Positions 6,033-20,481 of a stretch of DNA of 64,000 nucleotides are shown here, in pieces; the stretch's first letter is position 1; the number at the start of each line of letters is the position of its first letter. Position numbers and translations under genes: made by a program. The stretch spans positions 279-64,278 of the forward strand of contig CACBCD010000005.1 of assembly GCA_902537725.1 (NCBI GenBank). Direction: 5' to 3'. The stretch is from an uncultured PS1 clade bacterium (lineage in GTDB: Bacteria; Pseudomonadota; Alphaproteobacteria; MED-G09). The notes under the pieces are model-generated. The model made no database searches and had not been told where the DNA came from. It worked only from the letters and a program-made list of their open reading frames with translations.

Positions 6033-6214
6033 TTATACCTCCCCCATAAGAATAAAAAATAAAATAATTTTACTTAATTTATTAATTAAATATTTATTTA
6101 TAGAATAAATATTATTTATTAATACAATAAATATTGAAAAAAATCATAAAGTCAAACTATTAGATAAAACCTTTGAAATTTTGGTAAATAAATGTATAAA
6201 CCTCTGATGAAATT

Positions 6215-6290
6215 GCCGACGTAGCTCAACTGGTAGAGCACCTGATTTGTAATCAGGGGGTTGGGGGTTCAAGTCCCTCCGTCGGCACCA
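6215..6290 (+). tRNA. tRNA-Thr (anticodon UGU)
   Basis: Cloverleaf folded by hand. Acceptor stem GCCGACG/CGTCGGC, anticodon loop TTTGTAA, T-loop TTCAAGT, encoded CCA. Confidence 0.9.
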
Positions 6291-6291
6291 T
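6221..6291 (+). repeat. Direct repeat copy 1 (attL core), corresponding to the 3' 70 nt of tRNA-Thr
   Basis: Identical 71-bp string GTAGCTCAACTGGTAGAGCACCTGATTTGTAATCAGGGGGTTGGGGGTTCAAGTCCCTCCGTCGGCACCAT is found again at 19459-19529. Confidence 0.85.
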
Positions 6292-6388
6292 TAAATTTTC
6301 TTAATAGCGAAACCCTGCCCTTTTCTAATATTCACTGTGTGTAAGCCTCAATGAATAATTGCAAGATTTGCCCTCTTTTACAAGCGCA

Positions 6389-6410
6389 TTGTGCCAATAC
6401 TGTGCCAAGA
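6389..6410 (+). promoter_or_regulatory. GTGCCA-N5-GTGCCAAGA motif (putative integrase arm-type site), left island end
   Basis: TTGTGCCAATACTGTGCCAAGA lies ~100 bp inside the repeat. A near-identical motif lies at 19359-19380. Confidence 0.35.
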
Positions 6411-6597
6411 ATCATGGAGGTATGGGCCACTGCCCCTATGGGGGATATCTATAAACAATAAAGACAGAAAATGTGTGCTTTAGATGTTAACCAGTTTTAA
6501 GACTCATAGAGAATCACAGGGAGGGATTATTATTTAAGGAGTCTAGGAGATTCAAAAAGTTTAAATGAGTCTGAGTGAGTCTGTATGAGCCTTAAAT

Positions 6598-7332
6598 TCA
6601 CCTTGTTATCCTTGTAATACATTGATTTGGGTTATCTTCATCAAAGTAATCACTTTCAACTTTTTTAATCACTTTAAAACCTGTTCCATCTGACTGATAG
6701 GTTATTACTGTGGAAGTACAGACATCACTACTAACCCTACTCGTAAGTGTTTTTTGTTCTATATCAATTTCTGCATTACCTTGAAAAGAAATAGTAGGAA
6801 TAGCTTCATACACGTTATCTATTTTTTCTAATTCATAAATTTGATATTTTTGATAACCCCGATTCCCACCAAAGGTTCCAATAATGATTTCATCATCACC
6901 ATCAAAATCAATATCAAATATTCTTATGGGTTCGTACTTTGATAAATCTGGATCTGGTTTATTTAATTTAATTGGGAAATTAATGCGGCATGTATCTTTA
7001 GATTGATCGCTATACCACTCCAAACATTTATATTGTAATGGTGGTAAGGCAAAATCTTTATCAATTTGAATATTTATATGTATTCCTAACTCAGATGATA
7101 TAAATCGTATGTCAGCCTTTCCTGTAATGTGATTTAAAATATCCCCAACCACAAGAATTTCAAAAGTGCCAACCACCATTATGTCTTCAAAACCCTGAGT
7201 GTAACTAAAATTAAGTTGTACTGGGGGATTTTCTTCAACTGGATGTTTTAGGATTTTAAAAACAGAGGCATTACTTTGTCCCTCAAAACAAAGAAGAAAA
7301 ATTAAAACTAATAAAAACTTAAACAACTTCAT
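6598..7332 (-). CDS. Secreted hypothetical protein (FG-GAP/VCBS-like DxDxDGDDE segment)
   Basis: Signal peptide MKLFKFLLVLIFLLCFEGQSNA. Translationally coupled to the upstream gene. Confidence 0.5.
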   Translation of the reverse strand: MKLFKFLLVLIFLLCFEGQSNASVFKILKHPVEENPPVQLNFSYTQGFEDIMVVGTFEILVVGDILNHITGKADIRFISSELGIHINIQIDKDFALPPLQYKCLEWYSDQSKDTCRINFPIKLNKPDPDLSKYEPIRIFDIDFDGDDEIIIGTFGGNRGYQKYQIYELEKIDNVYEAIPTISFQGNAEIDIEQKTLTSRVSSDVCTSTVITYQSDGTGFKVIKKVESDYFDEDNPNQCITRITR

Positions 7333-8075
7333 TCCTCAATGACCATAATATTATTATCTTTAAATTTTGTAATAATTCTTGAAACCTTAATGGTGTCCTC
7401 TAAGGGGTCATACTTACTTTTATAGTGTCCGATCACAATATCATTACCGTCTAATTTTAAAAATTTTTCATTATAGCCAACACTTATTTCTCCAACTTTA
7501 TAAACAAGGTGTCTTTCACGTCCATCTAAATAAAGGTTATATTCATCCTCATCATTCTCACTTTTAGATGATGTAGAATAATCTATATCAAGACCAAAAT
7601 CTTTTACGATACGAACAAACATAATTGTTCTTGAGGTTAGACTGCCTCCGCCATTTTCAAATATACGATATACATGAATATCATTATGTATGGTGCCTAC
7701 ATAACTATAAGAAAAAAAAGCTCTAGTATCGCCATATTCGCTTCGTTCAGAATAAGTTATACAATTCTTTTTTTCTTCATTATCGCCACAATAAATTCTA
7801 TCACCTCCTATGAAGAACCTATTGCGATCAAATTGTTTATCAAGCTGTATAGCTACAATATCATCGAAGTTAGTAGTGTCTGATATCCATACTGATAATT
7901 TCTCTAATATTAGAGGATTAATTTCTTTTGGATCTATTTTATTTTCGGCATGTAAATTATGGGAACAAAACATGAATATAGCGCTTAAAAACACGAAATT
8001 TAGAAAATATTTATTTGGCTTAATTCCGCCCTTAATACTGGTTAACAGCCATTTTAGGGGCTTGTAATTTGACAA
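7329..8075 (-). CDS. Membrane-anchored or secreted hypothetical protein
   Basis: N-terminal hydrophobic segment; 4-nt overlap with the downstream gene. Confidence 0.45.
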   Translation of the reverse strand: MSNYKPLKWLLTSIKGGIKPNKYFLNFVFLSAIFMFCSHNLHAENKIDPKEINPLILEKLSVWISDTTNFDDIVAIQLDKQFDRNRFFIGGDRIYCGDNEEKKNCITYSERSEYGDTRAFFSYSYVGTIHNDIHVYRIFENGGGSLTSRTIMFVRIVKDFGLDIDYSTSSKSENDEDEYNLYLDGRERHLVYKVGEISVGYNEKFLKLDGNDIVIGHYKSKYDPLEDTIKVSRIITKFKDNNIMVIEE

Positions 8076-8221
8076 ATTGAAACTCCTTCATTAGACTGGT
8101 GTCACTATCCCGCCGGGGATTATATATATAGTATATCTATTACCCTAATCTATTCCCTATTAAGTATATATTAAGTACCCAAGCAGGTGATTACCTATTA
8201 TTTTATATGATTCTATAAGGT

Positions 8222-8722
8222 TTACCTCTTATTAGAGTTATTCCTTCTCCATTCCCATGGTTTTATAAACTTACTTCTCCATAACCCTCTTTTATTCTCT
8301 TTAGCTAACTCTTCTTCATCAATATAATCTTTAGAATACTTTCTATATGCTAGAGCATATCCCTCTCTAACCATAATACTTCCTATATCCATACGATTAT
8401 CATCTTTAAAGATATAGCATCGAGCTAATATTCTTTTATAGCGATCTTGTCCTAGTTCCTTACAATCAAATCCATCTGTTCCATGCAATTGCTCAAGATA
8501 TAAAGCCGCTGCTAATCCACATTCCCAATCCCGATTATTAAGGGTACAGATTTGATTAATCTCTGGTGCATCCATACCCTCTAGGCGATAACGAATACCA
8601 TTGCGTTTTAGAGTATCGCCATCAGTGATAGAATAGGTTTGAGGATTCCAATCCTTAGCTTGAACATTTAGGGTTAAAAAAAGAAAGGTAAGAAGAGTAT
8701 AAAAAATATATTTAATATTCAT
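8222..8722 (-). CDS. Secreted thermonuclease (staphylococcal-nuclease-like, SNc) family protein
   Basis: Signal peptide and SNase motifs DGDTL...RLEGMDAPE. Confidence 0.6.
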   Translation of the reverse strand: MNIKYIFYTLLTFLFLTLNVQAKDWNPQTYSITDGDTLKRNGIRYRLEGMDAPEINQICTLNNRDWECGLAAALYLEQLHGTDGFDCKELGQDRYKRILARCYIFKDDNRMDIGSIMVREGYALAYRKYSKDYIDEEELAKENKRGLWRSKFIKPWEWRRNNSNKR

Positions 8723-8736
8723 ACGCTATAAGAATT

Positions 8737-9141
8737 TTATTCATTTGTTTTATTTTCAAGATTATTACTTATTATTTTTCCATCTTTCACAGAATAATAA
8801 AAAGATCCAAATCCAGAGAAATATATCAATAAATCAGTAATTAGACTTTGTTTTATATTATTGAAAATAATTGAATCAATTATAAGAAATAAAAAAAATA
8901 AAGATGGTATAATTAAAATTAACTTTGGATCGTAATTTTTATAAATATTAGTTAAAATCTCTCCAGTTAAGCCTGATGCTATAGATGAACCAACCACAAG
9001 CATAAATGACATAACAAAAAACCAATCCATTAGTTCTTCATTAATTAATAATGGGATAAACATTGAGAATAATAAAAAAATAATAAAATAGATTGGAGGG
9101 TACAAGGCAGATATCATTACTGTAAAAATTTTATTTTTCAT
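8737..9141 (-). CDS. Small polytopic membrane protein
   Basis: About four hydrophobic helices; 134 aa. Confidence 0.4.
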   Translation of the reverse strand: MKNKIFTVMISALYPPIYFIIFLLFSMFIPLLINEELMDWFFVMSFMLVVGSSIASGLTGEILTNIYKNYDPKLILIIPSLFFLFLIIDSIIFNNIKQSLITDLLIYFSGFGSFYYSVKDGKIISNNLENKTNE

Positions 9142-9178
9142 AATTAGACCTTAGACTAAATTATATAGTTTTTTAATT

Positions 9179-9973
9179 TTAATTATTCGCTAAATTTAAT
9201 AAAGGGTGAGTTTTATAAAATTCTTCACTCCAATACCCTTCTCTTAATAACTCATTCTCTATTTCTTTTGCGTGATTTTTAGATAGTTTAAAGGTTCTGT
9301 ATTTATTAAATAAATCTATTCCATAGCTATTAGGATTTATAGCAAAAATATGATACCAAAAATTTAAAACTGGTGACATCCAATTTTGTTTAGGACTATA
9401 GCTAGAATACAAAACCCTATTATTTTCATGTAGATACCCTCTAATCATTCCATCAGTTTCTTTCTTGTATAAAAGATCCCTCTCTGTTGCCATTTTGTTA
9501 GTAACATCAACAAGTTGATAATTTATGACTGAATAAATCTTTGTAATTAATCCATAACCAGCATTAGGACCCCATTTACGACCATGGCTTCCAACTACTG
9601 CTGTAACCTCACATACACCATCATTATTAAGGTCTAAAATATTGATTTCTCTATGGAAACCAAGATGTGCTAATTTAGCTGGTTCACTATCACCATATTT
9701 ATCTGGGTTCCCTTTTTCTATGAATGTTAGACCATGGCTTCTAGCCGTGCCTGTACCTCCAGTCTTAACGATATAAAAATCATGATACCCTTCATGTGGA
9801 TACTGATTTTTTGGATCAAGACACCAGTATAATCTAAAACCATGAAGTTCTTTTGCAGAAATCCAATTACCAGCCTTATCTGATGTTACAACATATGCTT
9901 TTACCTCAGTTGAGAGGGTAAAAATGCTTATGCATAGAGCTAAACAAATCTTATATATTGAACTAGTGCTCAA
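9179..9973 (-). CDS. Secreted hypothetical protein
   Basis: Signal peptide ending TEVKA; 11-nt overlap with the upstream MORN gene. Confidence 0.5.
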   Translation of the reverse strand: MSTSSIYKICLALCISIFTLSTEVKAYVVTSDKAGNWISAKELHGFRLYWCLDPKNQYPHEGYHDFYIVKTGGTGTARSHGLTFIEKGNPDKYGDSEPAKLAHLGFHREINILDLNNDGVCEVTAVVGSHGRKWGPNAGYGLITKIYSVINYQLVDVTNKMATERDLLYKKETDGMIRGYLHENNRVLYSSYSPKQNWMSPVLNFWYHIFAINPNSYGIDLFNKYRTFKLSKNHAKEIENELLREGYWSEEFYKTHPLLNLANN

Positions 9974-10643
9974 ATTTACGTTCTCCTAAAAAATCATCAG
10001 GATCAATATCGTTAAGTATTTCTCCGTCCTCATTCCAGAATGTGTATTCGGAAGAAATTTCACCATTGATATATTTTATTTCAGCCATAATTTGGCCATT
10101 TGCATACCATCGTCTCTCTAAACCATGAAGGACACCATCAAGAAACTCTCCCTCAATTTTCTTTTTTCCATCTGAATAATACTGCGTCTCTAATCCATTT
10201 TGATGCCCATCTTTAAAATTTCCCACAGCTTTTAAATTTCCATTAGGCCACCAGGCTTTAGAAATCCCTGTATGATGATCATCTTTAAACTCAGCAAAGC
10301 CTAAATATGATCCATCCTCATACCAAGACTCCATTGATCCATTTTTAACACCACCTTTATATTGAATTTTTGCTTTTAATTGGCCATTAGGAAAATAGTA
10401 GATTTCAAATCCTTCCTGAATATCATTAATAAAGACTAACTCTTTTTCAATATTACCATCACTATCATAGTGAATTTCTTTTCTTTGCTTATTCCAAAAT
10501 TTATTAGAGCTAACTACTTCAATCTGGCCAGTGGAGGTTTTTATAATTTCTTTTTGTTCATTTGAATAAATAAAATATCCAACTAAAAATAAAGCTACAA
10601 CAAAGATAAATAAAAATTTTATTTTCTTATTTTTCATTTTCAT
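9963..10643 (-). CDS. MORN-repeat (YwqK-like) protein, membrane-anchored or secreted
   Basis: Repeated YxxNGxL(K/E)...G motifs and an N-terminal hydrophobic anchor. Confidence 0.6.
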   Translation of the reverse strand: MKMKNKKIKFLFIFVVALFLVGYFIYSNEQKEIIKTSTGQIEVVSSNKFWNKQRKEIHYDSDGNIEKELVFINDIQEGFEIYYFPNGQLKAKIQYKGGVKNGSMESWYEDGSYLGFAEFKDDHHTGISKAWWPNGNLKAVGNFKDGHQNGLETQYYSDGKKKIEGEFLDGVLHGLERRWYANGQIMAEIKYINGEISSEYTFWNEDGEILNDIDPDDFLGERKFEH

Positions 10644-11868
10644 CCAGATCTAATGTTTTTAAAAACGAAGCTATTTGACTGACCTCTTTATCGTTTAAAT
10701 ATTGCACAATTTCGTTTGTATCATTCTTTGCAAGATACTTATTATACTGATGCCTTTGCAGTGGTGTCATTTTTTTTGCATCAAAAAATTGCAGTGGATC
10801 AAAGTGATATTGTATTGTTTCATCTAATGACATTACTGCCCCAGAATGGCTGTATGGTCGTGTTTTGGAGACATTATGTAGAGAGGGGGTACGAAATTTA
10901 TATTGATCCTCGGGATTGAACGTAGAATTATAAAGTCCATAATCAATACCAAACCCATTTTTTCCAAATCCTAATTGAGGAAAAGGAACAGTATAAAAAT
11001 TAAAATCTGAAAAGTATGGTCCACTATGACATGACACACATCCACCTTTTCCATAAAATAGTAAGCCTCCATTTAACTCATCTTCATTAAGAGAAGTTTC
11101 ACCTTCAATAAACTTACTGAATTTTGATGGTCTCAATTTAAATTCTGAACGTATAAAATGTGCAAGCGCTGTTGCAATATTAATAAATTCTATCTCTTCA
11201 AAATTCACGCCAATTTCTTTTGCTAGTTTTTTCATTAAAGCAGGTTCTTTAACAATTAAATTTTCAACAACTCTTTTATAAATTTCATCCGCTGCACTTG
11301 TTGTTTCTTTTTTAAAGCTTTTTACCACATAGTCCTCTTGAAGAGTTTCCCTTATCTCCACAACAGGAAGGTGAACAGCTGTAATAAGGAGGTCTTCACT
11401 TGGTGTATCTTTTCCAAATTGACTTGTAATAGTTTCACCAGATCTACTTACTCTTCCATCCCAGAAAAAAGTTGAGAAACCTTTTCCTCCTACTCCCCAT
11501 AGGGCAAGGGTATTTCTAGGAACAACCTTACCACCAGCTTTATAACGAGATATTCCTTCACCATCTCCTCCTATCCCTATAGCATTTGGTAATCCATCAC
11601 CGGAGGCAGCCTTATCAAAATGACAGCTAACACAGGCAACTCCTCCATTTAAGCTAAGATTTTCACTTTCAAAAAGATCTTTGCCAATGGCTGCCATATT
11701 TTCATCTACTGGAATATGTGTTGATGAAGGTAAGTCATAACCTGATGCTTTGGCTCTCTCTTTAATAATGGACTCTTTGTAAACATTGCTGGCCTGAGCC
11801 TTCAAATTGCCATAAAAATTAAAAAGGAAAATTAAGCAAAAAATAAAAGTTTTAATATTTAAATTCAT
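10627..11868 (-). CDS. Di-heme cytochrome c peroxidase / MauG-like enzyme
   Basis: Signal peptide and two CxxCH motifs (CVSCHFDK and CVSCHSGPYF), with CCP/MauG architecture. Confidence 0.8.
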   Translation of the reverse strand: MNLNIKTFIFCLIFLFNFYGNLKAQASNVYKESIIKERAKASGYDLPSSTHIPVDENMAAIGKDLFESENLSLNGGVACVSCHFDKAASGDGLPNAIGIGGDGEGISRYKAGGKVVPRNTLALWGVGGKGFSTFFWDGRVSRSGETITSQFGKDTPSEDLLITAVHLPVVEIRETLQEDYVVKSFKKETTSAADEIYKRVVENLIVKEPALMKKLAKEIGVNFEEIEFINIATALAHFIRSEFKLRPSKFSKFIEGETSLNEDELNGGLLFYGKGGCVSCHSGPYFSDFNFYTVPFPQLGFGKNGFGIDYGLYNSTFNPEDQYKFRTPSLHNVSKTRPYSHSGAVMSLDETIQYHFDPLQFFDAKKMTPLQRHQYNKYLAKNDTNEIVQYLNDKEVSQIASFLKTLDLDENEK

Positions 11869-12247
11869 GGGTCTCTATAAATGTATCTATATGTGTATTG
11901 TTTTCTTCTATGGCTTCAAGACCTAATTTAGATAGATCATTAGGACTAACCCCCCACGAAATCATAAATTTTCTTAGTTTATCATAGTCATGACAATGTA
12001 CTAATCCCACTTCAGACATTTCTAATGCTTTCAAAGATTCCATAGATTTTTCAACTGTAACTCTATTCTTTGCTATTAAATGATTGCGCATAGCACTATC
12101 ACAGATAAACATTTTTTCTTTATATTCTTCTCCATAAAAATTATTTACGGCATAAGGTGCTACAATAAATTTTACTGCAAGGGCCAAACAGGATAAGCCA
12201 GCAACAACATTGATTAATACAAGAAATTTTTCAGATTTTTTCAACAT
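11852..12247 (-). CDS. Small membrane-anchored hypothetical protein
   Basis: N-terminal transmembrane helix; overlaps both neighbours. Confidence 0.4.
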   Translation of the reverse strand: MLKKSEKFLVLINVVAGLSCLALAVKFIVAPYAVNNFYGEEYKEKMFICDSAMRNHLIAKNRVTVEKSMESLKALEMSEVGLVHCHDYDKLRKFMISWGVSPNDLSKLGLEAIEENNTHIDTFIETHEFKY

Positions 12248-12642
12248 TGTAATAACTCTCTTGTTTTTTCATCAATTATTCCCGATGGATTTAAATTATT
12301 ATTATATTGAAAGTACAATGTTTCAACCAGAACCTCATGACTGGTTATGTCTTCGATATTGGCAAAGTTATGGCCTTGATCATTCATCTTCACCAAACAC
12401 CCAATCATCCATGGTGCATCTTTTTTTATTCTCTCTTTGCGCTCTTGCTCAAGGGCGACTGCAGGATTAGCAGGTAACACAAAAGTCCTAGGTGTACTTC
12501 CCTCGTTTCTTCCTCCTTCAATCTCAACTTGAATTGGGGCTTTAAACAAATCTTTTGCATATAATAAAAATCCAAATGGAGTAATTGTTACAAGATAAAG
12601 AAGTGTTAAAGAAAAAATTAAAATAAAATTTCGCTCAGACAT
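12241..12642 (-). CDS. Small membrane-anchored hypothetical protein
   Basis: N-terminal transmembrane helix; immediately downstream of hxsC. Confidence 0.4.
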   Translation of the reverse strand: MSERNFILIFSLTLLYLVTITPFGFLLYAKDLFKAPIQVEIEGGRNEGSTPRTFVLPANPAVALEQERKERIKKDAPWMIGCLVKMNDQGHNFANIEDITSHEVLVETLYFQYNNNLNPSGIIDEKTRELLQC

Positions 12643-13812
12643 TTATGAAAAAGCCTTTATATGATCACTATGTTTATAAAGAATTTGAGATGAGAAAAAA
12701 CCACCACATTCATGCTTACGCGAACATTTATTGCATTCATCTAAATATTCATTTTTCCAGTCACTGATTGAGTGAACATAATTATCTTCAACATCTGGGT
12801 TAACAGTGCATAACTGATGATTATAAACAGAATTATTTATTTTACTTCTGTTTAAGACAGCAACGGCCTGACTTAGAGTATCTTTATAGTCATAAGGATC
12901 AATCCATAAATCAGGTAAATTTGCCCGTGTAAATCCAGTTATTTCAAGTCCCATCAAAGCAACATGATCAACGAATAGAAGGTTACGAGAAATATATTCA
13001 CAGGTCTCAACAAGTCGTCCTATTGTTTGCTGATGAATGACAATCCTAATTTCTACTTTTTGATTCAAAGCTTTTAAATTTAAAATACCCTGAATTGTTT
13101 CATCAAATGCATCTTCAGATTGAACAACATAATTATGAATTTCAGGTACATCTGAATAAATTGGAATACAGATCATACAATTAGGATGATCTATTTTATG
13201 TAAAAGTCTTGCATATTCAGGATCGGAGAATGCTCTACCATTAGATAATATATCAATAGCGGTTTGTGGAAGGTAACCTCGACACTTCTCTACTAAGTCA
13301 ATTAACTTTTCTTTATAAATAGTAGGCTCACCACCAGAAAATCCCATACGTACTGTGTCACGAGGAATTAACTCTATGGCTTCCATAGCTCTCTCCAGCA
13401 ACCATGAGTCTTCTTTAGATTTTGGTGGTTGAGAACACATTAAACAATAATGATTACAGCGTTCGGTTAATAAAAAAGTATTGTATTTTGCATTACTTCT
13501 AAAGATTGCCCAAATACTTCCATCATCTTTAAAGTTAATAATATCCCCAGCTTCCATATAATCCATATATTGAGGAATATGGAACCAATTCTTATGCTTA
13601 GAAGTACTAAAAACTGATGCATTTTGCGATATATAAGCACCAAAACCATCTGGTAAATTAGTATCTATGTTTTCTTTAAGAATGTAAGCATACTTTTCAC
13701 GAAGGGGAAAAGGTAAGCTACTATCATCAGAAATAATAAGCATTTTGTGACCGATAAAGTCACAATGAAAATCTTTTGTGGATCCTCTTAATTGAAGCAT
13801 TAGTTTATCCAA
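12643..13812 (-). CDS. hxsC: Radical SAM maturase, His-Xaa-Ser system HxsC-like
   Basis: CxxxCxxC motif (CNHYCLMC); paired with the second rSAM; lies in an operon with the HXS-repeat precursor. Confidence 0.6.
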   Translation of the reverse strand: MDKLMLQLRGSTKDFHCDFIGHKMLIISDDSSLPFPLREKYAYILKENIDTNLPDGFGAYISQNASVFSTSKHKNWFHIPQYMDYMEAGDIINFKDDGSIWAIFRSNAKYNTFLLTERCNHYCLMCSQPPKSKEDSWLLERAMEAIELIPRDTVRMGFSGGEPTIYKEKLIDLVEKCRGYLPQTAIDILSNGRAFSDPEYARLLHKIDHPNCMICIPIYSDVPEIHNYVVQSEDAFDETIQGILNLKALNQKVEIRIVIHQQTIGRLVETCEYISRNLLFVDHVALMGLEITGFTRANLPDLWIDPYDYKDTLSQAVAVLNRSKINNSVYNHQLCTVNPDVEDNYVHSISDWKNEYLDECNKCSRKHECGGFFSSQILYKHSDHIKAFS

Positions 13813-15281
13813 CTTTCAAAAATAGAACGGGTTTCCAAATTGGAATCATAGGTATCCAACAAATGACTAAAAGTATTATAATTTCTGTAGCAAAAATCTG
13901 ATTCTGCTTTTTTCCCTAAAAAATCCCCTGTAGTAGCATAATGAAATACAGGATCTGCTCCGCAATATTGCTCAAAAGCACATTCACTACAACGCGGTGC
14001 GCTTGTTGTCATAGATTGTTCAAGAGGATCGAGAAGTTTATCGCTTAAAAATACATCTTTAAAATTATCTGTCGCAAGATTTCCAATTTCAAAAGTATTA
14101 TCACCCATTTCGGCAAGCATTCTTCCTTCATCAGAGGCAAATATCTTGCCATCATAATTATATACTATACCACCAATACCAATCCCTGCTGGGGATCGAA
14201 GGTCAACATAACCGGGGTCTTTGAGTGTAAGTATTTTTTTCAAAATTGTAGCAGAATAGAATTCTCTAAAATGAACACCTGATTTATTTATTTCTAATAT
14301 ATATTCTAAACCAGTCTTATAAAATTCAAACCACTTCTTACTTCCATAGGCATTGTATTTTTTAGTTTTAATAGCAAATCCGTAAGGTGATAAAGGTCTT
14401 AAAAAAATTCCAGAGAATCCCTGTTTTAAATATTCATCAATTATTATTCTTGGATCATCTAAGCTCTTATCTGTTGTTGTCATTAGGGCATTCACTTTAT
14501 CAAAGCCAAGCTTTTCTCTAACTTTTTTTATTCCTTCAGTTGCCAACTCATAACTGTTGTTGCCAGGTCTTGGCCTATTGTGATTATGTAAAGATGCTGG
14601 CCCGTCTAATGATGTGGAAATCTCTATATCATGAAGTTTACAATAATCTAAAATTTCATCAGTAATAACAGCTAGATTTGTTGCAATTACAAAAGATAAA
14701 TCCTTCCCAATAGCCTCATTTTTTTCTTTAGCATCATGAACAATGAATTTAAGAGTATCAAAATTTAATAAGGGTTCACCACCTTGAAATTCTATCTTTA
14801 TTCTTGGCGATGGTCCTGACAGTGCAAAATCAACAGCTTTTGAAGCAGTTTCATAGGACATATCAAAGGCAAGCTTATCATCAGATTGTCTTGAAACCTG
14901 ACAATAAGGACAACTATGTTCACACCGAAGAGAGATTACAAACATATGAAGAGATGTAAGATTGGAATAATTTGAGAGCTTTGTTCGTGTTTTTATTCCT
15001 AATAATTGTTTAGCCGATTGTGTTTGGTCGTCACAAATAAAATGTAAGGATCTAAGATTTAAATAATCATCAGAATCATTTGGAAGGGTTCCATCAACTA
15101 AACTCTTTAGAACCTCATCTTTCGTAAAGAAATATTCTCCTACTAAATTTGTAAGTAAAACTCTTCCATTGATACGTGCAAAACGAAAGGGAAGAAGCTC
15201 ATAACTTTCATTAGTATTTTGAAAAAAATTTTGCTTTTGAAACTTAGTCATTATCAGAAAGTCCAGATTTTGAAAAAGCAA
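13800..15281 (-). CDS. hxsB: Radical SAM/SPASM maturase, His-Xaa-Ser system HxsB-like
   Basis: CEHSCPYC rSAM motif, plus a C-terminal SPASM-like CSECAFEQYC. The true start may be the internal Met at 15251. Confidence 0.65.
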   Translation of the reverse strand: MLFQNLDFLIMTKFQKQNFFQNTNESYELLPFRFARINGRVLLTNLVGEYFFTKDEVLKSLVDGTLPNDSDDYLNLRSLHFICDDQTQSAKQLLGIKTRTKLSNYSNLTSLHMFVISLRCEHSCPYCQVSRQSDDKLAFDMSYETASKAVDFALSGPSPRIKIEFQGGEPLLNFDTLKFIVHDAKEKNEAIGKDLSFVIATNLAVITDEILDYCKLHDIEISTSLDGPASLHNHNRPRPGNNSYELATEGIKKVREKLGFDKVNALMTTTDKSLDDPRIIIDEYLKQGFSGIFLRPLSPYGFAIKTKKYNAYGSKKWFEFYKTGLEYILEINKSGVHFREFYSATILKKILTLKDPGYVDLRSPAGIGIGGIVYNYDGKIFASDEGRMLAEMGDNTFEIGNLATDNFKDVFLSDKLLDPLEQSMTTSAPRCSECAFEQYCGADPVFHYATTGDFLGKKAESDFCYRNYNTFSHLLDTYDSNLETRSIFESWIN

Positions 15282-15543
15282 AGGCTAGAATTAAATTTTT
15301 AACTCCATCTGTTTTATTTGCTATTTCAATTCTTAACTCTTGATCTAAAACTTCATTACGAAATTCAATTTCAAAGTCTTCATAATTATCAATTGTAGAA
15401 TCTTTTTTAGGAATTATCTTACAGATATAACTGCTTTCATCTTCAGAAATATCTAATGCACATCTATCAGAAAAAACATAAGCAGCTTTCTTAATTGCTT
15501 CTAGACTAGTGCACTGACTATCAAAGTTCAGTGATGACGACAA
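15244..15543 (-). CDS. hxsD: His-Xaa-Ser system protein HxsD-like
   Basis: 99 aa acidic protein with VLDQELRIE, which resembles the HxsD LLNDYxLRE signature. Lies between the precursor and the rSAM genes. Confidence 0.5.
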   Translation of the reverse strand: MSSSLNFDSQCTSLEAIKKAAYVFSDRCALDISEDESSYICKIIPKKDSTIDNYEDFEIEFRNEVLDQELRIEIANKTDGVKNLILAFAFSKSGLSDND

Positions 15544-15545
15544 TT

Positions 15546-15809
15546 TTAGTAACCAGAGCTGTGAGAAGAATGTGAGCCGTGAGAGCCGTGAGAGCCGTGA
15601 GAACTATGAGAGCTATGGCCAGCGGACTGGATAGCATCATTATCATTTCCATTATTTTCCATCAAAAGTTCAGATAATATTGGATTATCAATTTGAAGTT
15701 TTTTACCAGTTTGTTCTTCATATACATTACTAGCATGACTAGTTATTGCTCCTGCAGCGACTACTGCAACCGCTGAACTTAAACCTATTAAAAATTTCTT
15801 TTTTGACAT
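15546..15809 (-). CDS. hxsA: His-Xaa-Ser repeat precursor peptide HxsA-like with Sec signal peptide
   Basis: MSKKKFLIGLSSAVAVVAAGAITSHA signal peptide. C-terminus HSSHSSHGSHGSHGSHSSHSSGY, i.e. seven H-x-S repeats. Confidence 0.65.
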   Translation of the reverse strand: MSKKKFLIGLSSAVAVVAAGAITSHASNVYEEQTGKKLQIDNPILSELLMENNGNDNDAIQSAGHSSHSSHGSHGSHGSHSSHSSGY

Positions 15810-16429
15810 AATAATTTTTCACTAATTGATAAAACACTAACGATTCTTCTTAAGCCTGTCAAATTATTGTATTTATTAATAAAAAACTTTAAATTTTTTT
15901 AAATTAGATTACCATATTTATTAGTACAGGGAGGTATTTGATTTCATAGTAGAATTAGCAGCGATAGTTTTTTTATTACTTACGGCACCATTTTGGTTTC
16001 CACTCTTACTAGGACTTTTGCAATTCTCTCTAGTTATAATAATTCCTCTTTTATTCATTTTAGGCCTTGTAGCGATAATCGCTGTAATTGCCTGATATAG
16101 TTTAATCATTTGGAGGAAATATGACATTAGACACATTCACATCAGTAATATCCATTAGCGTCGTAGGGCTAATTATTTTTGGAATTGCTTTTTTATTAAT
16201 AGTAAAAATTTCTCCTTTTTCTGTAAAAAAAGAGATTGAAGAAGATCAAAATACATCACTTGGAATACTTATCGGAAGTATTTTTATCTCTTTAGCAATT
16301 ATAATAAGTGCTGCTATCAGCTAATTATTAAAACCTAAACGAGAATAAAAAAATAACTAGTATTGTGACTTGGTTACTTCCAAAAATATTTTCCCTTTAC
16401 TAAAAAGATTTATTTAGTATTTTAAAAGA

Positions 16430-16577
16430 ACATCATGAGAGAGTGTAAACTCCGCCAACCAGCCTTAATCGGGCAACGGTGGTCCAACGATGTGGTTTTA
16501 GGATAAGACCTTGATAAAGGCACCAAAACAACAATACGATTGAGGCTCTTACGATGTTTTTCGTAGGGGCTTTTTTT
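16430..16577 (+). ncRNA. GC-rich structured leader or small RNA ending in an intrinsic terminator
   Basis: Local GC is far above its surroundings. Ends with hairpin GAGGCTCTTACG/CGTAGGGGC plus a T7 run at 16542-16577, directly upstream of ORF 16599. No riboswitch class could be assigned by eye. Confidence 0.3.
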
Positions 16578-16598
16578 ATGTCTCTACTTAATTATTAA

Positions 16599-16793
16599 AT
16601 GGAGACAAAAATGAATAAAAAAAATGATATGGATCTCATTAATCAATTAATGAAAGAAAGAAGAGATGCTATACATAGCTATGGCTTTGATTCTGAAAAC
16701 TTTAAAAAAATTGATGCAAAGTTTCAAAAATTATTAAATAAATATAACCTTATTCACACTGAACTAACTTTGGGATGGAAACAAAATAAGTAA
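16599..16793 (+). CDS. Small hypothetical protein (64 aa)
   Basis: ORF immediately after the terminator-containing leader. No recognisable domain. Confidence 0.3.
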   Translation: METKMNKKNDMDLINQLMKERRDAIHSYGFDSENFKKIDAKFQKLLNKYNLIHTELTLGWKQNK

Positions 16794-18069
16794 AGTAATT
16801 AATATTGATAATAAGTTTACCTTTATAGATTTATTTGCAGGTTGCGGGGGTCTCTCCCTTGGTATGGAAAAAGCTGGTTTTTTTCCATTATATGTAAATG
16901 AACTGAATAACGATGCTCTTGAAACTTACTTAGTAAATAGAGAAAAGTTTTTTCCTCACTTAAGGAATAAATATAATTCAAATGATATAAAAGATGTAAT
17001 TTCTGATAAAAATTTTTTTAATAATTTATTTAAAAATTTAAAAAACGATTTCAATAGAGATTTTAAAAAAAATTCTATCGATTTAATAACTGGAGGACCT
17101 CCCTGCCAAGGTTTTTCAGGTATGGGAATAAGAAGATCTTACTCAGTTGAAAAAAAACAGCTTCCATCAAATCATCTCTATCAGGATATGGCTTTTTTCA
17201 TACATCAGATTAGACCAAAAATATTTTTATTTGAGAATGTTGAAGGCCTAATAAGATCAAGATGGACAAAAAATGGAGAAAAAGGTGAGATATTTAATGA
17301 TGTATTAACAACATTCAGAAATATTCCAAATTACAATGTAAAATATAAACTTATCTATGCAAAAGATTATGGTGTTCCTCAAAATAGACCTCGAGTTTTA
17401 ATTGTAGGAATTCGTAAAGATTTCTCAAATAATTTTTTAGATGATGATGCTGTTTTAGCGGAATTTCTTCCTTTTCCTACATCAGATTATCCGGATATAG
17501 AGGAAATTTTTTCAGATATTATTGATGATAATTTTGTTTACGGGGAATCAACAAATATATATAAAAATGATCCCTTAAATAAATGGCAGGAGAACATTAG
17601 ATTTAATCCATTTACTAAGCAGATCTTAAAGAAAAATGATCCACTTACAGATCAACAATATAGTAGGCATTCTTTAAAGGTAATTGAAAAATTTACTTAT
17701 ATGATAAAAAATAATGGAGAAATTCCAGAGCATTTAAAAACTAAAAAATTTTCTCAAAGAGTTCTTCCAAGTAAGTGGGGTAATAAAGGACCCACTATAA
17801 CAGCATGTTCATTACCCGATGATTTCGTTCATTACAGTCAGCCAAGATCATTAACAGTTAGAGAATGGGCAAGACTACAAACTTTTCCTGACTGGTATGA
17901 ATTTAAAGGAAAAAGGACCACAGGCGGAATAAGAAGAGCAGGTAATCCAAGAAAGTCTATTTTTGATAGGGAGGTTCCAAAATACACTCAAATTGGTAAC
18001 GCTGTTCCAGTTAAACTAGCTTTTGAAATAGGCAAACATTTTGTTAAAATTTTAAAAAATTATAACTAA
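16786..18069 (+). CDS. DNA (cytosine-5)-methyltransferase, Type II R-M
   Basis: Motif IV GGPPCQGFS, ENV motif FLFENVEG, motif X QIGNAVPV. Motif I FIDLFAGCGGLSLG is encoded upstream of the first ATG at 16864, which implies a non-ATG start (ATA 16786 or ATT 16798). Confidence 0.8.
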   Translation: MSKVINIDNKFTFIDLFAGCGGLSLGMEKAGFFPLYVNELNNDALETYLVNREKFFPHLRNKYNSNDIKDVISDKNFFNNLFKNLKNDFNRDFKKNSIDLITGGPPCQGFSGMGIRRSYSVEKKQLPSNHLYQDMAFFIHQIRPKIFLFENVEGLIRSRWTKNGEKGEIFNDVLTTFRNIPNYNVKYKLIYAKDYGVPQNRPRVLIVGIRKDFSNNFLDDDAVLAEFLPFPTSDYPDIEEIFSDIIDDNFVYGESTNIYKNDPLNKWQENIRFNPFTKQILKKNDPLTDQQYSRHSLKVIEKFTYMIKNNGEIPEHLKTKKFSQRVLPSKWGNKGPTITACSLPDDFVHYSQPRSLTVREWARLQTFPDWYEFKGKRTTGGIRRAGNPRKSIFDREVPKYTQIGNAVPVKLAFEIGKHFVKILKNYN

Positions 18070-18085
18070 AGAAATTTATAATTAG

Positions 18086-19264
18086 ATGCTAATAAATGCA
18101 AATATTGATATTCTAGAAACTCTGTCCGCCTTTAGAGCCGAAGGGTTAAGGGTGGCTTTTTTAGTACCCACAGAAACCGGTTTAAAAAAATCAATAATGG
18201 ATGCAACTCAACAGTTTAGGGAGTTCCTCTCCAATGAAGATATTCATAATTTTGATAATCAAAATCAAGGAACTGCTAATAAAAAACTGATAGAAACTAT
18301 TTTAATATCCAAAAATAATTACTTCCAAACCAAAACATCTCTATATAGACCAGAAACAAAAAAGGGGGACCCAAGAATATGGGTGTATGAGTTAGGCCAA
18401 CATGCTTCAGAGGGTGATCTCCTAGCATTTTTATCTTCTAAAGAACAGTTAGTCGTAATCAATTGTAGTAACTGCAACCTTAAGGATTTATTTGAATCCA
18501 TAAAATTAAAGATACCCAATATTCTATCTTTTGAGACTTCATCAATATCAGACGAATTACTTAATAAAATGAAAGGAATATCTAATAAAGGTTTCATTAA
18601 ATCTCTTAAGACAGGAGATACTGGCGTGGGATTTACCCTAGAAACTCTTTTGGGTATCCAAGCAAATTCATCAAAAACACCTGATTATAAAGGAATTGAA
18701 ATTAAATCAATTAGACGTAGAAATCCGAAAGGAACTTTTTTTAGTATGGCGCCTGACTGGAAAAAAAGTAACCTTACAGATATAGAGCTTATTGAAAAAA
18801 GGGGATACTACACTGAAAAATTTGGTCCTCTAAAATCTCTTCACCAAACACTATCAACCAAAAAGAACAAACGTAATTTAAAATTATTATTAGAAGAAAA
18901 AGATATCTATGGTGGTTTAGAGAGTAATAATATTTTTGAAAAAGATGTTTATTGGTCTTTGGAAGAGTTGCAAAAAAGAATAACTGCCAAGCACAAAGAA
19001 ACATTTTGGATTGATGTAGAGACAAAAGGATCAGGTATTAATGAAGAATTTAAATATAGATCAATAACCCATACCTCTGATGTAGACATCGGGGTGGTTC
19101 CATTATTATTGGAACAAGGGATGATTACTCTTGATTACGTACTTTGGGAAAAAGGAAAAAATTGGAAAAGTTATACTAAAAAAAGTGGCTATGATTATTT
19201 ATGGAAAATTAAAAAAAAGAACCTTGATACCTTATTTAAGTATATAAAAATATACGATTTATGA
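18086..19264 (+). CDS. Putative Type II restriction endonuclease, partner of the C5-MTase
   Basis: Co-oriented, 16 nt after the MTase. Possible PD-(D/E)xK-like segment PDYKGIEIKS. No other homology recognised. Confidence 0.45.
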   Translation: MLINANIDILETLSAFRAEGLRVAFLVPTETGLKKSIMDATQQFREFLSNEDIHNFDNQNQGTANKKLIETILISKNNYFQTKTSLYRPETKKGDPRIWVYELGQHASEGDLLAFLSSKEQLVVINCSNCNLKDLFESIKLKIPNILSFETSSISDELLNKMKGISNKGFIKSLKTGDTGVGFTLETLLGIQANSSKTPDYKGIEIKSIRRRNPKGTFFSMAPDWKKSNLTDIELIEKRGYYTEKFGPLKSLHQTLSTKKNKRNLKLLLEEKDIYGGLESNNIFEKDVYWSLEELQKRITAKHKETFWIDVETKGSGINEEFKYRSITHTSDVDIGVVPLLLEQGMITLDYVLWEKGKNWKSYTKKSGYDYLWKIKKKNLDTLFKYIKIYDL

Positions 19265-19347
19265 ACTTTATGTTTATAAAGGTAAGGCGTACCATTTTTA
19301 TTATCTTGTGCTCGCCACTTGTTTTGTCGTTTTGTAATACTAGCCAT
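19265..19347 (-). pseudogene. Remnant of a tyrosine integrase N-terminus (arm-binding domain)
   Basis: Minus-strand ATG at 19347 gives MASITKRQNKWRAQDNKNGTPYLYKHKV, which resembles MASIRKRGNSWQAQ-type integrase N-termini. The reading frame then runs into the 3' end of the REase gene. Confidence 0.3.
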
Positions 19348-19358
19348 GTCTTCCTCCC

Positions 19359-19380
19359 GTGCCATAATTGTGCCAAGAGG
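19359..19380 (+). promoter_or_regulatory. GTGCCA-N5-GTGCCAAGA motif (putative arm-type site or int promoter), right island end
   Basis: CGTGCCATAATTGTGCCAAGAGG, just upstream of the int remnant and 79 bp from the attR repeat. Confidence 0.35.
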
Positions 19381-19458
19381 CTTATCAACGTAATGAATAA
19401 AAGTTTGCCTATTGCTTTAAAACCGCTTCCATACTAAATAATGAGTATGAGAAATGGT

Positions 19459-19529
19459 GTAGCTCAACTGGTAGAGCACCTGATTTGTAATCAGGGGGTT
19501 GGGGGTTCAAGTCCCTCCGTCGGCACCAT
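19459..19529 (+). repeat. Direct repeat copy 2 (attR), a truncated tRNA-Thr 3' fragment
   Basis: Identical 71 bp to 6221-6291. Its 5' flank AATGGTG cannot pair with CGTCGGC, so it is not a functional tRNA. Confidence 0.85.
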
Positions 19530-19560
19530 AAATATTTTTTAAAATTTTGGTATCAATCAT

Positions 19561-20481
19561 ATGCAATCATTTAAAGATAAAGTCGCAGTCATAACGGGGG
19601 CTGGATCGGGAATGGGTCAACAACTGGCTATTAATCTCGCAAAAGAAAATTGTAATCTTGTTATTTGCGATATTAACAAAAAAACAATCCAAGAAACTGA
19701 GGAAATTATAAGAAATTATAATGTCTCATGTACTGCATTAAATTTAGATTTAAGAGATGATAAAAATATCAAAACACTTTTAGAAACAACACTTAAAAAT
19801 TATAATAAGGTTGATTTATTATTTAATAATGCAGGTGTAGTTGCTCCATCATCTTTTCTAAATTTATCGGTAGAGGTTTGGGATTGGTGTAATGATATAA
19901 ATTATAATGCACTTGTAAAACTATCCAGGATTTTTTTACCACATCTAATAAAAAGTGATGAAGGCGCGTTAATAAATACCTCTTCAATTTTTGGTATTAT
20001 AACAACTCCAAACAATACAGTTTATCACTCTTCAAAATTTGCAGTTAGAGGTTTTACCGAAAGTCTGGCAATGGAATTAAGAGATGAAAAAATTCAGATT
20101 CACTCAGTTTATCCAGGTCATATTGGAACTAATATCGTTTTAGATGCAAAATTTGATAAAGATTTTTTGACAGCAGAAAATGAAAATAAAAACAATCCTG
20201 ATGGTAACCCTATAACAATTCAAGAGTTTGGTTCAACTTTTAAAGATACAGGCATGAATCCCAATAAAGCTGCAAAAATTATTTTAAAAGGAGTAAAAAG
20301 AAATAAAAAAAGAATTTTTGTAGGCTTGGATGCAAAAGTTATGGAAATTGCCCAAAGATTAGCACCTTCGCACTTCATGAAATTAATACCATTTTTAAAT
20401 CTTCTTATTTTTCCTTATTTTATTAAAAGATTAAAAATGACAAGAGTATTAATCTCGATTGCTAAAGGCAGAAAAAGTTAA
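19561..20481 (+). CDS. Short-chain dehydrogenase/reductase (SDR)
   Basis: TGAGSGMG Rossmann motif and YxxxK active site. Confidence 0.75.
   Translation: MQSFKDKVAVITGAGSGMGQQLAINLAKENCNLVICDINKKTIQETEEIIRNYNVSCTALNLDLRDDKNIKTLLETTLKNYNKVDLLFNNAGVVAPSSFLNLSVEVWDWCNDINYNALVKLSRIFLPHLIKSDEGALINTSSIFGIITTPNNTVYHSSKFAVRGFTESLAMELRDEKIQIHSVYPGHIGTNIVLDAKFDKDFLTAENENKNNPDGNPITIQEFGSTFKDTGMNPNKAAKIILKGVKRNKKRIFVGLDAKVMEIAQRLAPSHFMKLIPFLNLLIFPYFIKRLKMTRVLISIAKGRKS

What the first reader, a model, noticed from the sequence alone, without database searches (positions are those of the whole stretch)
6215..19529. A ~13 kb genomic island inserted at tRNA-Thr(UGU), bounded by 71-bp direct repeats
The sequence from tRNA position 7 through CCA plus one base (71 bp) at 6221-6291 is repeated exactly at 19459-19529. 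Only the left copy has a matching 5' acceptor strand, so the right copy is an attR-type truncated duplicate. Between them, nearly all genes are accessory: secreted proteins, a nuclease, the Hxs operon and an R-M system. Flanking genes on both sides are core metabolic. This is the classic signature of site-specific integration into a tRNA gene.
Basis: seen in the sequence. Interest (0 to 1): 0.7.

Follow-up and report, generated by a model that had tools for sequence, protein, structure and literature searches.

The report
Integrase-less genomic island at tRNA-Thr
A 13.2-kb block of accessory genes was inserted into a threonine tRNA gene of a marine alphaproteobacterium by a site-specific integrase that has since been deleted; this is an ordinary kind of genomic island, but it carries a restriction-modification cassette with its own SAM-sensing riboswitch.

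Summary
tRNA-Thr(UGU) lies at 6215-6290. Its positions 7-76 plus one base (6221-6291) recur exactly at 19459-19529, and this is the only significant repeat in the 64-kb window.

At least 16 contigs from related OCS116/PS1-clade genomes (94% and 86% nt identity in the flanks) have an empty site. In the closest relatives that site equals the window's left flank, the tRNA and the right flank, so the insertion is 13,238 bp with classical attL/attR.

The window has no integrase. Only codons 1-31 survive (19365-19273). A sister island on a metagenome contig (L089) sits at the same attR. It keeps an intact 327-aa tyrosine integrase and shares 9961-15912 at 97.8%. Each copy is a deletion derivative of a common ancestor. 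Integrases 69-71% identical occupy the same site in other genomes, one of them with different cargo.

The island is a mosaic:
- variable secreted proteins;
- a conserved His-Xaa-Ser (Hxs) module;
- a nested 2.9-kb type II R-M cassette.

That cassette starts with a SAM-I/IV riboswitch and recurs in at least two other genomic contexts.

Verdict: a new member of a known kind, with modest interest. The riboswitch-led R-M cassette is the most novel part.

The parts
6215..6290 (+). Intact tRNA-Thr(UGU) gene; it contains attL
   Evidence: ARAGORN; Rfam RF00005 at 75.5 bits; identical to the tRNA at the empty sites
6221..6291 (.). attL core: the left copy of the 71-nt exact direct repeat
6292..6597 (.). 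Non-coding island arm next to attL. It holds a tandem TGTGCCAA pair with 11-nt spacing (6390-6397, 6401-6408), a candidate arm-type integrase binding site
   Evidence: Three of the five TGTGCCAA hits in 64 kb lie within ~120 nt of the two cores. The same 11-nt-spaced pair overlaps the integrase start in L089 and L131-L134. Their function is inferred.
6598..9973 (-). Variable cargo block of five genes with signal-peptide or transmembrane-like N-termini: 6598-7332, 7329-8075, 8222-8722 (SNase-family nuclease), 8737-9141 (membrane protein) and 9179-9973
   Evidence: ORFs and translations; SNase PF00565 at 47.8 bits, no Pfam hit for the others. The sister island L089 has different genes here: glucosaminidase, a C14 caspase-domain protein, ECF sigma.
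9963..16324 (-). His-Xaa-Ser (Hxs) module: MORN_2 protein 9963-10643, MauG-like di-haem protein 10627-11868, TIGR03982 protein 11852-12247, 133-aa ORF 12241-12642, HxsC 12643-13812, HxsB 13800-15281, HxsD 15244-15543, HxsA 15546-15809, and a divergent DUF350 gene at 16121-16324 (+)
   Evidence: NCBIfam bits against cutoff: HxsB 594.9/370, HxsC 387.3/267.9, HxsD 63.2/50, TIGR03982 103.5/40, TIGR03981 367.5/340. HxsA is below cutoff but its H-x-S repeats are visible. The block is 97.8% identical in L089 and ~72% identical in L090/L091.
16384..19271 (+). Nested R-M cassette, a discrete unit also found in other genomic contexts
   Evidence: 16430-19271 is 95.6% identical in L135-L137, inside a 3.26-kb tRNA-Glu-flanked mini-island. 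16384-18904 is 98.4% identical in L148, in a TerB/Adhesin_E context. The right boundary 19271 coincides with the end of the REase remnant in L089.
16425..16545 (+). SAM-I/IV riboswitch aptamer at the head of the R-M cassette
   Evidence: Rfam RF01725 at 51.2 bits, above the gathering score of 41.1. It is conserved in L135-137 (48.2 bits), L140 (48.7) and L141/L143 (80.5). Five pairs show compensatory changes.
16542..16580 (+). Intrinsic terminator of the riboswitch expression platform
   Evidence: 13-pair stem followed by a T-run. It is conserved in L135 and L140. In the minimum-energy fold the aptamer's P1 5' strand pairs with the terminator's 5' arm, forming an antiterminator.
16599..16793 (+). 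Small ORF of 60-64 aa; the likely start is the ATG at 16611, preceded by GGAG. It has no family match
   Evidence: homologues in L135 and L140 follow the riboswitch in each case; no Pfam, PHROG or PADLOC hit
16795..18069 (+). C5 cytosine DNA methyltransferase. Motif I (FIDLFAGCGG) lies upstream of the first ATG (16864). There is no ATG/GTG/TTG between the in-frame stop at 16765-16767 and 16864
   Evidence: PF00145 at 181 bits; PADLOC MTase_II at 266 bits; sequence read; N-termini of homologues
18086..19264 (+). MvaI/BcnI-family type II restriction endonuclease
   Evidence: PF15515 at 166.4 bits; PADLOC REase_II at 68.4 bits
19273..19365 (-). Remnant of the tyrosine integrase gene. Codons 1-20 are near-identical to the L089 integrase. 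Codons 21-31 are only weakly similar
   Evidence: Alignment A2; tblastn aligns integrase residues 1-31 at 74% identity, E=2e-8, and finds no other integrase piece in the 64 kb
19358..19376 (.). attR-arm copy of the tandem motif (CGTGCCAT / TGTGCCAA), overlapping the start of the integrase gene
19459..19529 (.). attR core: a 5'-truncated tRNA-Thr copy, followed by the original chromosomal flank and the SDR gene (19561-20481)
   Evidence: the flank is identical to the empty-site flank in L080

Best explanation
The segment 6292-19458, bounded by the 71-nt repeats, is a genomic island. It entered the chromosome by tyrosine-integrase-mediated site-specific recombination. The partners were an element-borne attP carrying a near-full-length copy of tRNA-Thr(UGU) (positions 7-76) and the chromosomal tRNA-Thr gene (attB). 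Integration rebuilt an intact tRNA at attL. It left the displaced 5'-truncated copy at attR, directly in front of the original downstream gene (SDR). The integrase gene sat at the attR end and read into the island. In this genome a ~1.5-kb deletion removed the integrase gene from about codon 21-32 onward, together with the adjacent MORN-repeat gene, so the island can no longer excise on its own. A related integrase supplied in trans might still act on it, because both cores and the candidate arm sites are intact. The island is a mosaic with three parts. The first is a variable block of secreted proteins. The second is a conserved Hxs peptide-maturation module. The third is a nested type II R-M cassette that moves as a unit and carries its own SAM-I/IV riboswitch leader. 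Shown: the repeat, the empty sites, the integrase remnant, the intact sister integrase, the deletions and the module boundaries. Inferred: that this integrase catalysed the event, the role of the arm sites, and that the event happened in this lineage rather than being imported with its flanks.
For: The exact 71-nt repeat is the only repeat in the window. Empty sites exist in 10 contigs at ~94% flank identity and 6 at ~86%, and in the closest ones (L080) attB = attL left flank + tRNA + attR right flank. The sister island L089 sits at the same attR and has an intact 327-aa integrase (PF00589 97.9 bits; phrog_1 165.7 bits). Its promoter and first 20 codons are ~97% identical to window 19304-19458. 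L089 keeps the last 149 nt of the REase gene at 100% identity, joined to the hxsA upstream region across a 6-nt microhomology (GTAATC). The window keeps only the integrase N-terminus. Both are therefore deletion derivatives of an ancestor carrying int, MORN, R-M and hxs. Integrases 69-71% identical occupy the same SDR/tRNA-Thr site in L131 and L133, and L131 carries different cargo: type I R-M, M48 peptidase, TerB. Tandem TGTGCCAW motifs are present in both arms. The dinucleotide signature is mildly atypical: delta* 38.6 against a maximum of 35.4 among 32 same-size control segments.
Against: There is no integrase, excisionase or any other mobility gene in the window copy, so mobility of this copy is not shown. 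GC contrast is negligible (0.314 against 0.325-0.333). No attP or circular form was found: the 70-nt tRNA segment has no exact match in viral contigs. The attL end of the sister island could not be retrieved. About 31 nt between the integrase remnant and the R-M cassette (19272-19303) are of unclear origin, at ~59% identity to integrase codons 21-31.
Confidence: 0.9

Rival explanations
1. The island was not integrated in this lineage by an integrase. It arrived already integrated, by homologous recombination in the conserved flanks (tRNA/TonB receptor on one side, SDR on the other), from a donor of the same clade. It may already have lacked the integrase at that point.
For: The island block is 97.8% identical between the window and L089. 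The few flank bases available for L089 carry a 4-nt indel and a substitution typical of the ~86% group, not of the window, so the island occurs in different host backgrounds. The window copy has no integrase. Composition is host-like.
Against: This explains only the last transfer step. The attL/attR structure, the integrase remnant and the intact sister integrase still require integrase-mediated integration originally. Only 57 nt of L089 flank are available.
Confidence: 0.2
2. The block is an ancient, fixed chromosomal region. The empty sites in relatives are secondary losses through recombination between the two tRNA repeats.
For: The weak compositional contrast. Recombination between 71-nt repeats would produce exactly the observed empty site.
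Against: Empty sites occur in every one of the 16 related contigs sampled at two divergence levels. The same site holds different cargo behind a related integrase in L131. An integrase remnant lies at attR. The repeats are 100% identical, while the host flanks differ by 6% from the nearest relatives.
Confidence: 0.04
3. It is a decayed prophage or an integrative conjugative or mobilisable element.
For: The integration site is a tRNA gene, the recombinase is a tyrosine integrase, and the best PHROG match of the sister integrase is the phage integrase family phrog_1.
Against: No capsid, tail, terminase, replication, relaxase or type IV secretion domain appears in any island ORF, here or in the 14 kb of L089. 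The 70-nt att segment has no match in 2.9 million viral contigs.
Confidence: 0.04

Closest known systems
tRNA-gene-targeting genomic islands with tyrosine (phage-type) integrases, as surveyed by Williams 2002 (Nucleic Acids Res 30:866) and seen in E. coli pathogenicity islands and the tRNA-flanked islands of Prochlorococcus (Coleman et al. 2006, Science 311:1768). Cited from my own knowledge, not read here.
   Same: A direct repeat made of the 3' part of a tRNA gene; an intact tRNA at one end and a truncated copy at the other; an integrase gene next to one att site; accessory cargo; empty sites in relatives; one site reused by related integrases with different cargo.
   Different: The integrase is deleted in this copy. 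The identity block is unusually long (71-74 nt, almost the whole tRNA). The host is a streamlined low-GC marine OCS116/PS1 alphaproteobacterium, and the island shows almost no compositional contrast.
Integrase-less att-flanked elements: 'cis-mobilisable elements' (CIMEs) and other decayed islands. From my own knowledge.
   Same: Both att sites are intact but the element carries no recombinase. Mobilisation in trans by a related integrase is conceivable, since related integrases circulate in the same clade.
   Different: No evidence of trans-mobilisation was obtained. Here the loss is a demonstrable recent deletion, because the remnant is ~97% identical to an intact sister gene.
His-Xaa-Ser (Hxs) radical-SAM peptide maturation system: NCBIfam TIGR03976-03979, TIGR03981 and TIGR03982; described in silico by Haft and Basu 2011 (from my own knowledge).
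   Same: HxsB, HxsC, HxsD, the MauG-like di-haem protein and the TIGR03982 protein all score above the curated cutoffs and lie in one operon with a His-x-Ser repeat peptide.
   Different: HxsA is short (87 aa) and scores below the HxsA cutoffs. Here the operon is cargo of a tRNA island and is linked to MORN_2 and DUF350 genes that are conserved with it in L090/L091.
Type IIP R-M systems of the MvaI/BcnI endonuclease family
   Same: The endonuclease matches PF15515 over the full profile, and an adjacent co-oriented DNA methyltransferase is present.
   Different: The endonuclease has a ~155-aa N-terminal extension. The methyltransferase is a C5 enzyme without a canonical start codon. The operon is preceded by a SAM-I/IV riboswitch, a terminator and a 60-aa ORF. 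Held-library searches returned no paper evidently about a riboswitch in front of an R-M system.

Membership tests
tRNA-integrated genomic island (tyrosine-integrase type) | Direct repeats that reproduce the 3' portion of a tRNA gene, with an intact tRNA at one end only | tested here: met
   71-nt exact repeat covering tRNA positions 7-76 plus one base. The left copy is intact and the right copy lacks the 5' acceptor strand.
tRNA-integrated genomic island (tyrosine-integrase type) | An empty (unoccupied) attB in related genomes that equals left flank + tRNA + right flank | tested here: met
   L079-L088 (94% nt) and L073-L078 (86% nt) are empty; alignment A1 shows the junctions.
tRNA-integrated genomic island (tyrosine-integrase type) | An integrase gene adjacent to one att site | tested here: not met
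   Only codons 1-31 remain in the window. The feature is met in the sister island L089, which has an intact 327-aa PF00589 protein. The window copy is therefore a degenerate member.
tRNA-integrated genomic island (tyrosine-integrase type) | Accessory, variable gene content | tested here: met
   Absent from 16 related contigs. Cargo differs between the window, L089 and L131.
tRNA-integrated genomic island (tyrosine-integrase type) | Atypical base composition | tested here: inconclusive
   GC 0.314 against 0.325-0.333. Delta* is 38.6 against 21.4 +/- 6.3 (maximum 35.4) for control segments.
tRNA-integrated genomic island (tyrosine-integrase type) | Excision or a circular attP form | not testable with these tools
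   No attP was found: the 70-nt att segment has no match in viral contigs. This needs PCR or read-level data.
Prophage / ICE / IME | Phage structural or replication genes, or relaxase/T4SS genes | tested here: not met
   No such Pfam, PHROG or PADLOC hit in any island ORF or in L089.
His-Xaa-Ser (Hxs) system | Paired radical-SAM maturases HxsB and HxsC plus HxsD, above the curated cutoffs | tested here: met
   594.9/370, 387.3/267.9 and 63.2/50 bits.
His-Xaa-Ser (Hxs) system | HxsA precursor with His-Xaa-Ser repeats | tested here: inconclusive
   33 bits against a cutoff of 121.65, but the C-terminus reads HSSHSSHGSHGSHGSHSSHSS.
Type II restriction-modification system | Adjacent methyltransferase and endonuclease genes, both intact | tested here: inconclusive
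   Both families were detected. The methyltransferase has no ATG/GTG/TTG upstream of motif I. This feature is conserved in the cassette copies in which the methyltransferase N-terminus was read (L135) and all 94-100% homologues are called at 401 aa, so it may be functional through an ATT start or translational coupling. Activity was not tested.
SAM-I/IV riboswitch (RF01725) | Score above the Rfam gathering threshold, with the aptamer helices kept | tested here: met
   51.2 bits against 41.1. Compensatory changes across four distinct copies. A terminator/antiterminator platform is present. Ligand binding was not tested.

The most novel reading that the evidence does not exclude
The nested 2.9-kb cassette (16384-19271) may be a self-contained, horizontally moving type II R-M unit whose transcription is gated by a SAM-I/IV riboswitch. 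If so, the cell would tune a restriction-modification system to the level of the methyl donor its methyltransferase needs. The predicted design is an OFF switch. With SAM bound, the terminator at 16542-16580 forms. With low SAM, the aptamer's P1 5' strand pairs with the terminator's 5' arm and transcription reads through into orf60, M and R. The methyltransferase would be translated by coupling to orf60, because it lacks a canonical start codon. The same link between riboswitch, small ORF and C5 methyltransferase recurs in three diverged cassette types with different endonuclease partners. Held-library searches returned no paper evidently about a riboswitch-controlled R-M system.
Probability: 0.4. 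Interest if true: 0.65.

Novelty: new member of a known kind. Interest (0 to 1): 0.35.

Why it matters
As a genomic island this is textbook biology, and its value is descriptive. It documents, with empty sites and a sister copy, that tRNA-Thr(UGU) is a recurrent integration hotspot in the abundant but poorly studied marine OCS116/PS1 clade. It also shows how such islands decay by reciprocal deletions, and that they carry defence systems and an Hxs peptide-maturation operon between streamlined genomes. The more interesting by-product is the riboswitch-led R-M cassette. If the SAM aptamer really controls the operon, that would be a new regulatory logic for R-M systems: cofactor sensing, rather than C proteins or antisense RNA. 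It would also give a small, easily testable construct.

Tried and rejected
- **attP search:** an exact search for the 70-nt tRNA/att segment in 2.9 million viral contigs found nothing. There is therefore no evidence for a phage or a circular attP form.
- **Exact-sequence look-ups:** the window's SDR protein and the 100%-identical methyltransferase P0255 are not on record. The source assembly and identical strains could not be inspected.
- **TonB-receptor scan of GTDB genomes:** most hits were paralogous loci without the tRNA. Only L013 was syntenic. It is not a clean empty site, because it carries an island-type flank and an IscS-like fragment.
- **GC content:** too weak to serve as evidence.
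- **Prophage, ICE and IME readings:** rejected for lack of any diagnostic domain.
- **Site avoidance as a clue to R-M specificity:** CCWGG is 50 observed against 66.7 expected (ratio 0.75) and CCSGG is 11 against 10.7. This is too weak to call.
- **Viral-contig search with the methyltransferase:** two distant loci only, not followed up.
- **Literature searches:** queries combining SAM riboswitch, restriction-modification and DNA methyltransferase, and OCS116 with genomic island, listed nothing evidently relevant by title. The original SAM-I/IV paper does not discuss downstream genes in its main text.


Full report
**1. Observation.** ARAGORN finds tRNA-Thr(tgt) at 6215-6290 on the + strand. 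The repeat finder reports a direct repeat 6221-6304 / 19459-19542. Its first 71 nt are identical, covering tRNA position 7 through CCA plus one base. The right copy is preceded by AATGGT rather than GCCGAC. Rfam's tRNA model scores it 53.6 bits, against 75.5 for the left copy, and flags acceptor pairs as non-standard. A self-BLAST shows this is the only repeat in the 64-kb window.

**2. Host and empty sites.** The flanking TonB-dependent receptor gene places the window in the marine OCS116/PS1 clade of Alphaproteobacteria. The best genome hits are OCS116 and PS1 single-cell genomes.

- Homologues of the right-flank SDR protein are very abundant in marine metagenomes.
- Look-ups of two of them returned 16 contigs. 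Ten (L079-L088, several of them ~1.45 Mb) have flanks ~94% identical to window 1-6304 and 19459-25752. Six (L073-L078) are ~86% identical.
- In all of them the receptor gene, tRNA-Thr and the SDR gene are adjacent, with a gap of about 255-280 bp.
- Alignment A1 shows that the empty site of L080 equals the window's attL left flank, the tRNA and the attR right flank, including the identical string TAAATATTTTTTAAAATTTTGGTATCAATCATATG.

The window therefore carries a 13,238-bp insertion with classical attL/attR geometry.

**3. The missing integrase.** No island ORF matches a recombinase. A minus-strand start at 19346-19365 encodes MA(R)EEDMASITKRQNKWRAQ. A metagenome scan with HxsB found contig Ga0222719_10002255 (L089), which carries a sister island at the same attR.

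- L089 1-281 matches window 19581-19304 at about 97%. This covers the SDR start, the tRNA fragment and the integrase promoter plus its first 20 codons.
- L089 then continues into an intact 327-aa tyrosine integrase (PF00589 97.9 bits; phrog_1 165.7 bits), followed by a 180-aa MORN protein.
- Next in L089 come 149 nt that are 100% identical to the 3' end of the window's endonuclease gene (19123-19271). They are joined across a 6-nt microhomology (GTAATC) to the region upstream of hxsA (window 15912).
- From there, L089 1945-7885 equals window 15912-9961 at 97.8%.

tblastn finds only integrase residues 1-31 in the window, and nothing else in the 64 kb. The two copies are therefore reciprocal deletion derivatives of an ancestor with the order attR, int, MORN, R, M, orf60, riboswitch, DUF350, hxs. 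The window lost about 1.5 kb (int plus MORN). L089 lost 3.2 kb (15913-19122). About 31 nt at 19272-19303 are of unclear origin.

**4. A recurrent hotspot.** The L089 integrase has 3,339 homologues at E<=1e-20, mostly marine.

- P0141 (71% identical; L131, from GCA_003281865.1) and P0148 (69%; L133) lie at the same place. They sit next to the SDR gene, behind a tRNA-Thr copy matching positions 3-76 whose first two acceptor pairs are mismatched.
- L131 carries different cargo: a type I R-M system, a glucosaminidase, an M48 peptidase and TerB.
- A tandem TGTGCCAW pair with 11-nt spacing overlaps the integrase start in L089 and L131-L134.
- In the window the pair occurs in both arms, at 6390-6408 and 19358-19376. 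That accounts for 3 of the 5 occurrences in 64 kb. I read these as candidate arm-type integrase sites; this is an inference.
- L013, a more distant genome (85% nt), has after its tRNA the island-type junction TTAAATTTTCTTAAT..CGAAA and an IscS-like gene fragment, but no attR copy. It looks like the stump of an earlier occupant.

**5. Anatomy of the cargo.**

- *Block 6598-9973.* It encodes five proteins with signal-peptide or membrane-like N-termini, one of them an SNase-family nuclease. L089 has different genes here.
- *Block 9963-16324.* This is a complete His-Xaa-Ser system. HxsB, HxsC, HxsD, the MauG-like di-haem protein (TIGR03981) and the TIGR03982 protein all score above the NCBIfam cutoffs. 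HxsA is recognisable by its repeats. MORN_2 and DUF350 genes flank the operon. The whole block is conserved at ~72% in L091 (9961-16323) and from 12479 onward in the shorter contig L090.
- *Block 16384-19271.* This is a type II R-M cassette: a C5 methyltransferase (PF00145 181 bits) and an MvaI/BcnI-family endonuclease (PF15515 166 bits; PADLOC MTase_II and REase_II).

**6. Composition.** Island GC is 0.314, against 0.333 for the left flank and 0.325 for the right. The dinucleotide distance to the rest of the window is 38.6, against 21.4 +/- 6.3 (maximum 35.4) for 32 same-size control segments. The contrast is weak. That is what one expects if the island circulates among low-GC relatives.

**7. 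The R-M cassette and its riboswitch (noticed while annotating).** Rfam places a SAM-I/IV aptamer at 16425-16545 (51.2 bits; gathering score 41.1). It is followed by a strong intrinsic terminator at 16542-16580, a 60-aa ORF, the methyltransferase and the endonuclease, all on the + strand.

- The whole unit recurs at 95.6% identity in L135-L137. There it sits between 32-nt direct repeats of the 3' end of tRNA-Glu(UUC), forming a 3.26-kb mini-island without an integrase downstream of recJ.
- It also recurs at 98.4% identity in L148, next to TerB and Adhesin_E genes.
- More distant methyltransferase homologues keep the link. L141/L143 (72% identical, with an HNH-domain gene as the presumed endonuclease partner) have an aptamer scoring 80.5 bits upstream of a small ORF and the methyltransferase.
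- In L140 (78% identical) the aptamer, the same terminator and an orf60 homologue lie after the M-R pair, a permuted order.
- L145 has no aptamer.
- Four distinct copies show five pairs with compensatory changes.
- In the minimum-energy fold of 16420-16600, the P1 5' strand (AAGAACAUC...UGAGA) pairs with the terminator's 5' arm and loop. This is the design of a SAM-OFF transcriptional switch.
- The methyltransferase has motif I upstream of its first ATG and no canonical start codon. Its frame opens inside the end of orf60. This holds in the L135 copy too, and all 94-100% homologues are called at 401 aa. That suggests translational coupling or a non-canonical start rather than a dead gene.
- Held-library searches returned no paper evidently about a riboswitch-controlled R-M system.

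**8. Verdict.** It is a degenerate, integrase-less and mosaic member of a very well known class, so its novelty is low. The notable details are the reconstruction of its decay from a sister copy, the reuse of the same site by related integrases, and the nested riboswitch-led R-M cassette. The last of these deserves an experiment.

Noticed in passing
window 16425-16580: A SAM-I/IV riboswitch aptamer (RF01725, 51.2 bits) and an intrinsic terminator head the R-M operon. The same riboswitch, small-ORF and C5-methyltransferase link occurs in L135-137, L140 and L141/L143 (up to 80.5 bits). The predicted antiterminator pairing implies a SAM-OFF switch.
   Followed up: partly
window 16765-16866: The C5 methyltransferase has motif I (FIDLFAGCGG) upstream of its first ATG. 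There is no ATG/GTG/TTG in frame after the stop at 16765-16767, and the frame overlaps the end of orf60 (stop at 16791-16793). The same N-terminal reading was seen in L135, and all 94-100% homologues are called at 401 aa, whereas homologues at 67-78% start with ATG about 23 codons earlier. Possible explanations are an ATT/GTA start or termination-reinitiation coupling.
   Followed up: partly
L135 5450-5481 and 8713-8744 (also L136 1636-1667 and 4899-4930): The same R-M cassette sits between 32-nt direct repeats of the 3' end of tRNA-Glu(UUC), downstream of recJ. This forms a 3.26-kb att-flanked mini-island with no integrase at all.
   Followed up: partly
L013 590-960: OCS116 genome AG-390-I16 has, right after its tRNA-Thr, 22 nt matching the window's island-side attL flank. 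An 82-aa IscS/NifS C-terminal fragment follows, and there is no attR copy. This is probably the stump of a related island. The same genome has two tandem TonB-receptor paralogues.
   Followed up: partly
L134 4214-5360: An integrase 86% identical to that of L089 lies next to tRNA-His(GTG) instead of tRNA-Thr. By eye its catalytic C-terminal part is nearly identical to L089's while the first ~80 residues are diverged. This may be a domain swap linked to a change of target.
   Followed up: partly
L140 268-3422: The cassette is arranged in permuted order: M, then R (an MvaI/BcnI-family homologue), then the SAM-I/IV aptamer with the same terminator, then orf52 and an orf60 homologue. A DUF1998-like zinc-ribbon C-terminus lies upstream, suggesting a defence island.
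   Followed up: no
window ~29016-29024: Relatives at 94% identity carry a 411-aa Rieske oxygenase gene (L080 about 19290-20580) between the 153-aa ORF and the FMO gene. The window lacks these ~1.3 kb.
   Followed up: no
window 2237-3620: The cytochrome P450 gene is split into two ORFs (112 and 323 aa), whereas many relatives have an intact gene of 461-462 aa. This is either a pseudogene or an assembly error.
   Followed up: no
window, whole: CCWGG, the MvaI-type site, is mildly under-represented (50 observed against 66.7 expected). CCSGG is not (11 against 10.7). This is too weak to assign the specificity of the R-M system.
   Followed up: partly
L089 1-57 against window 19530-19581 and L073: The short host flank of the sister island carries a 4-nt indel and a substitution typical of the ~86% group rather than of the window's lineage. 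The island itself is 97.8% identical. This hints at recent transfer between host lineages.
   Followed up: partly
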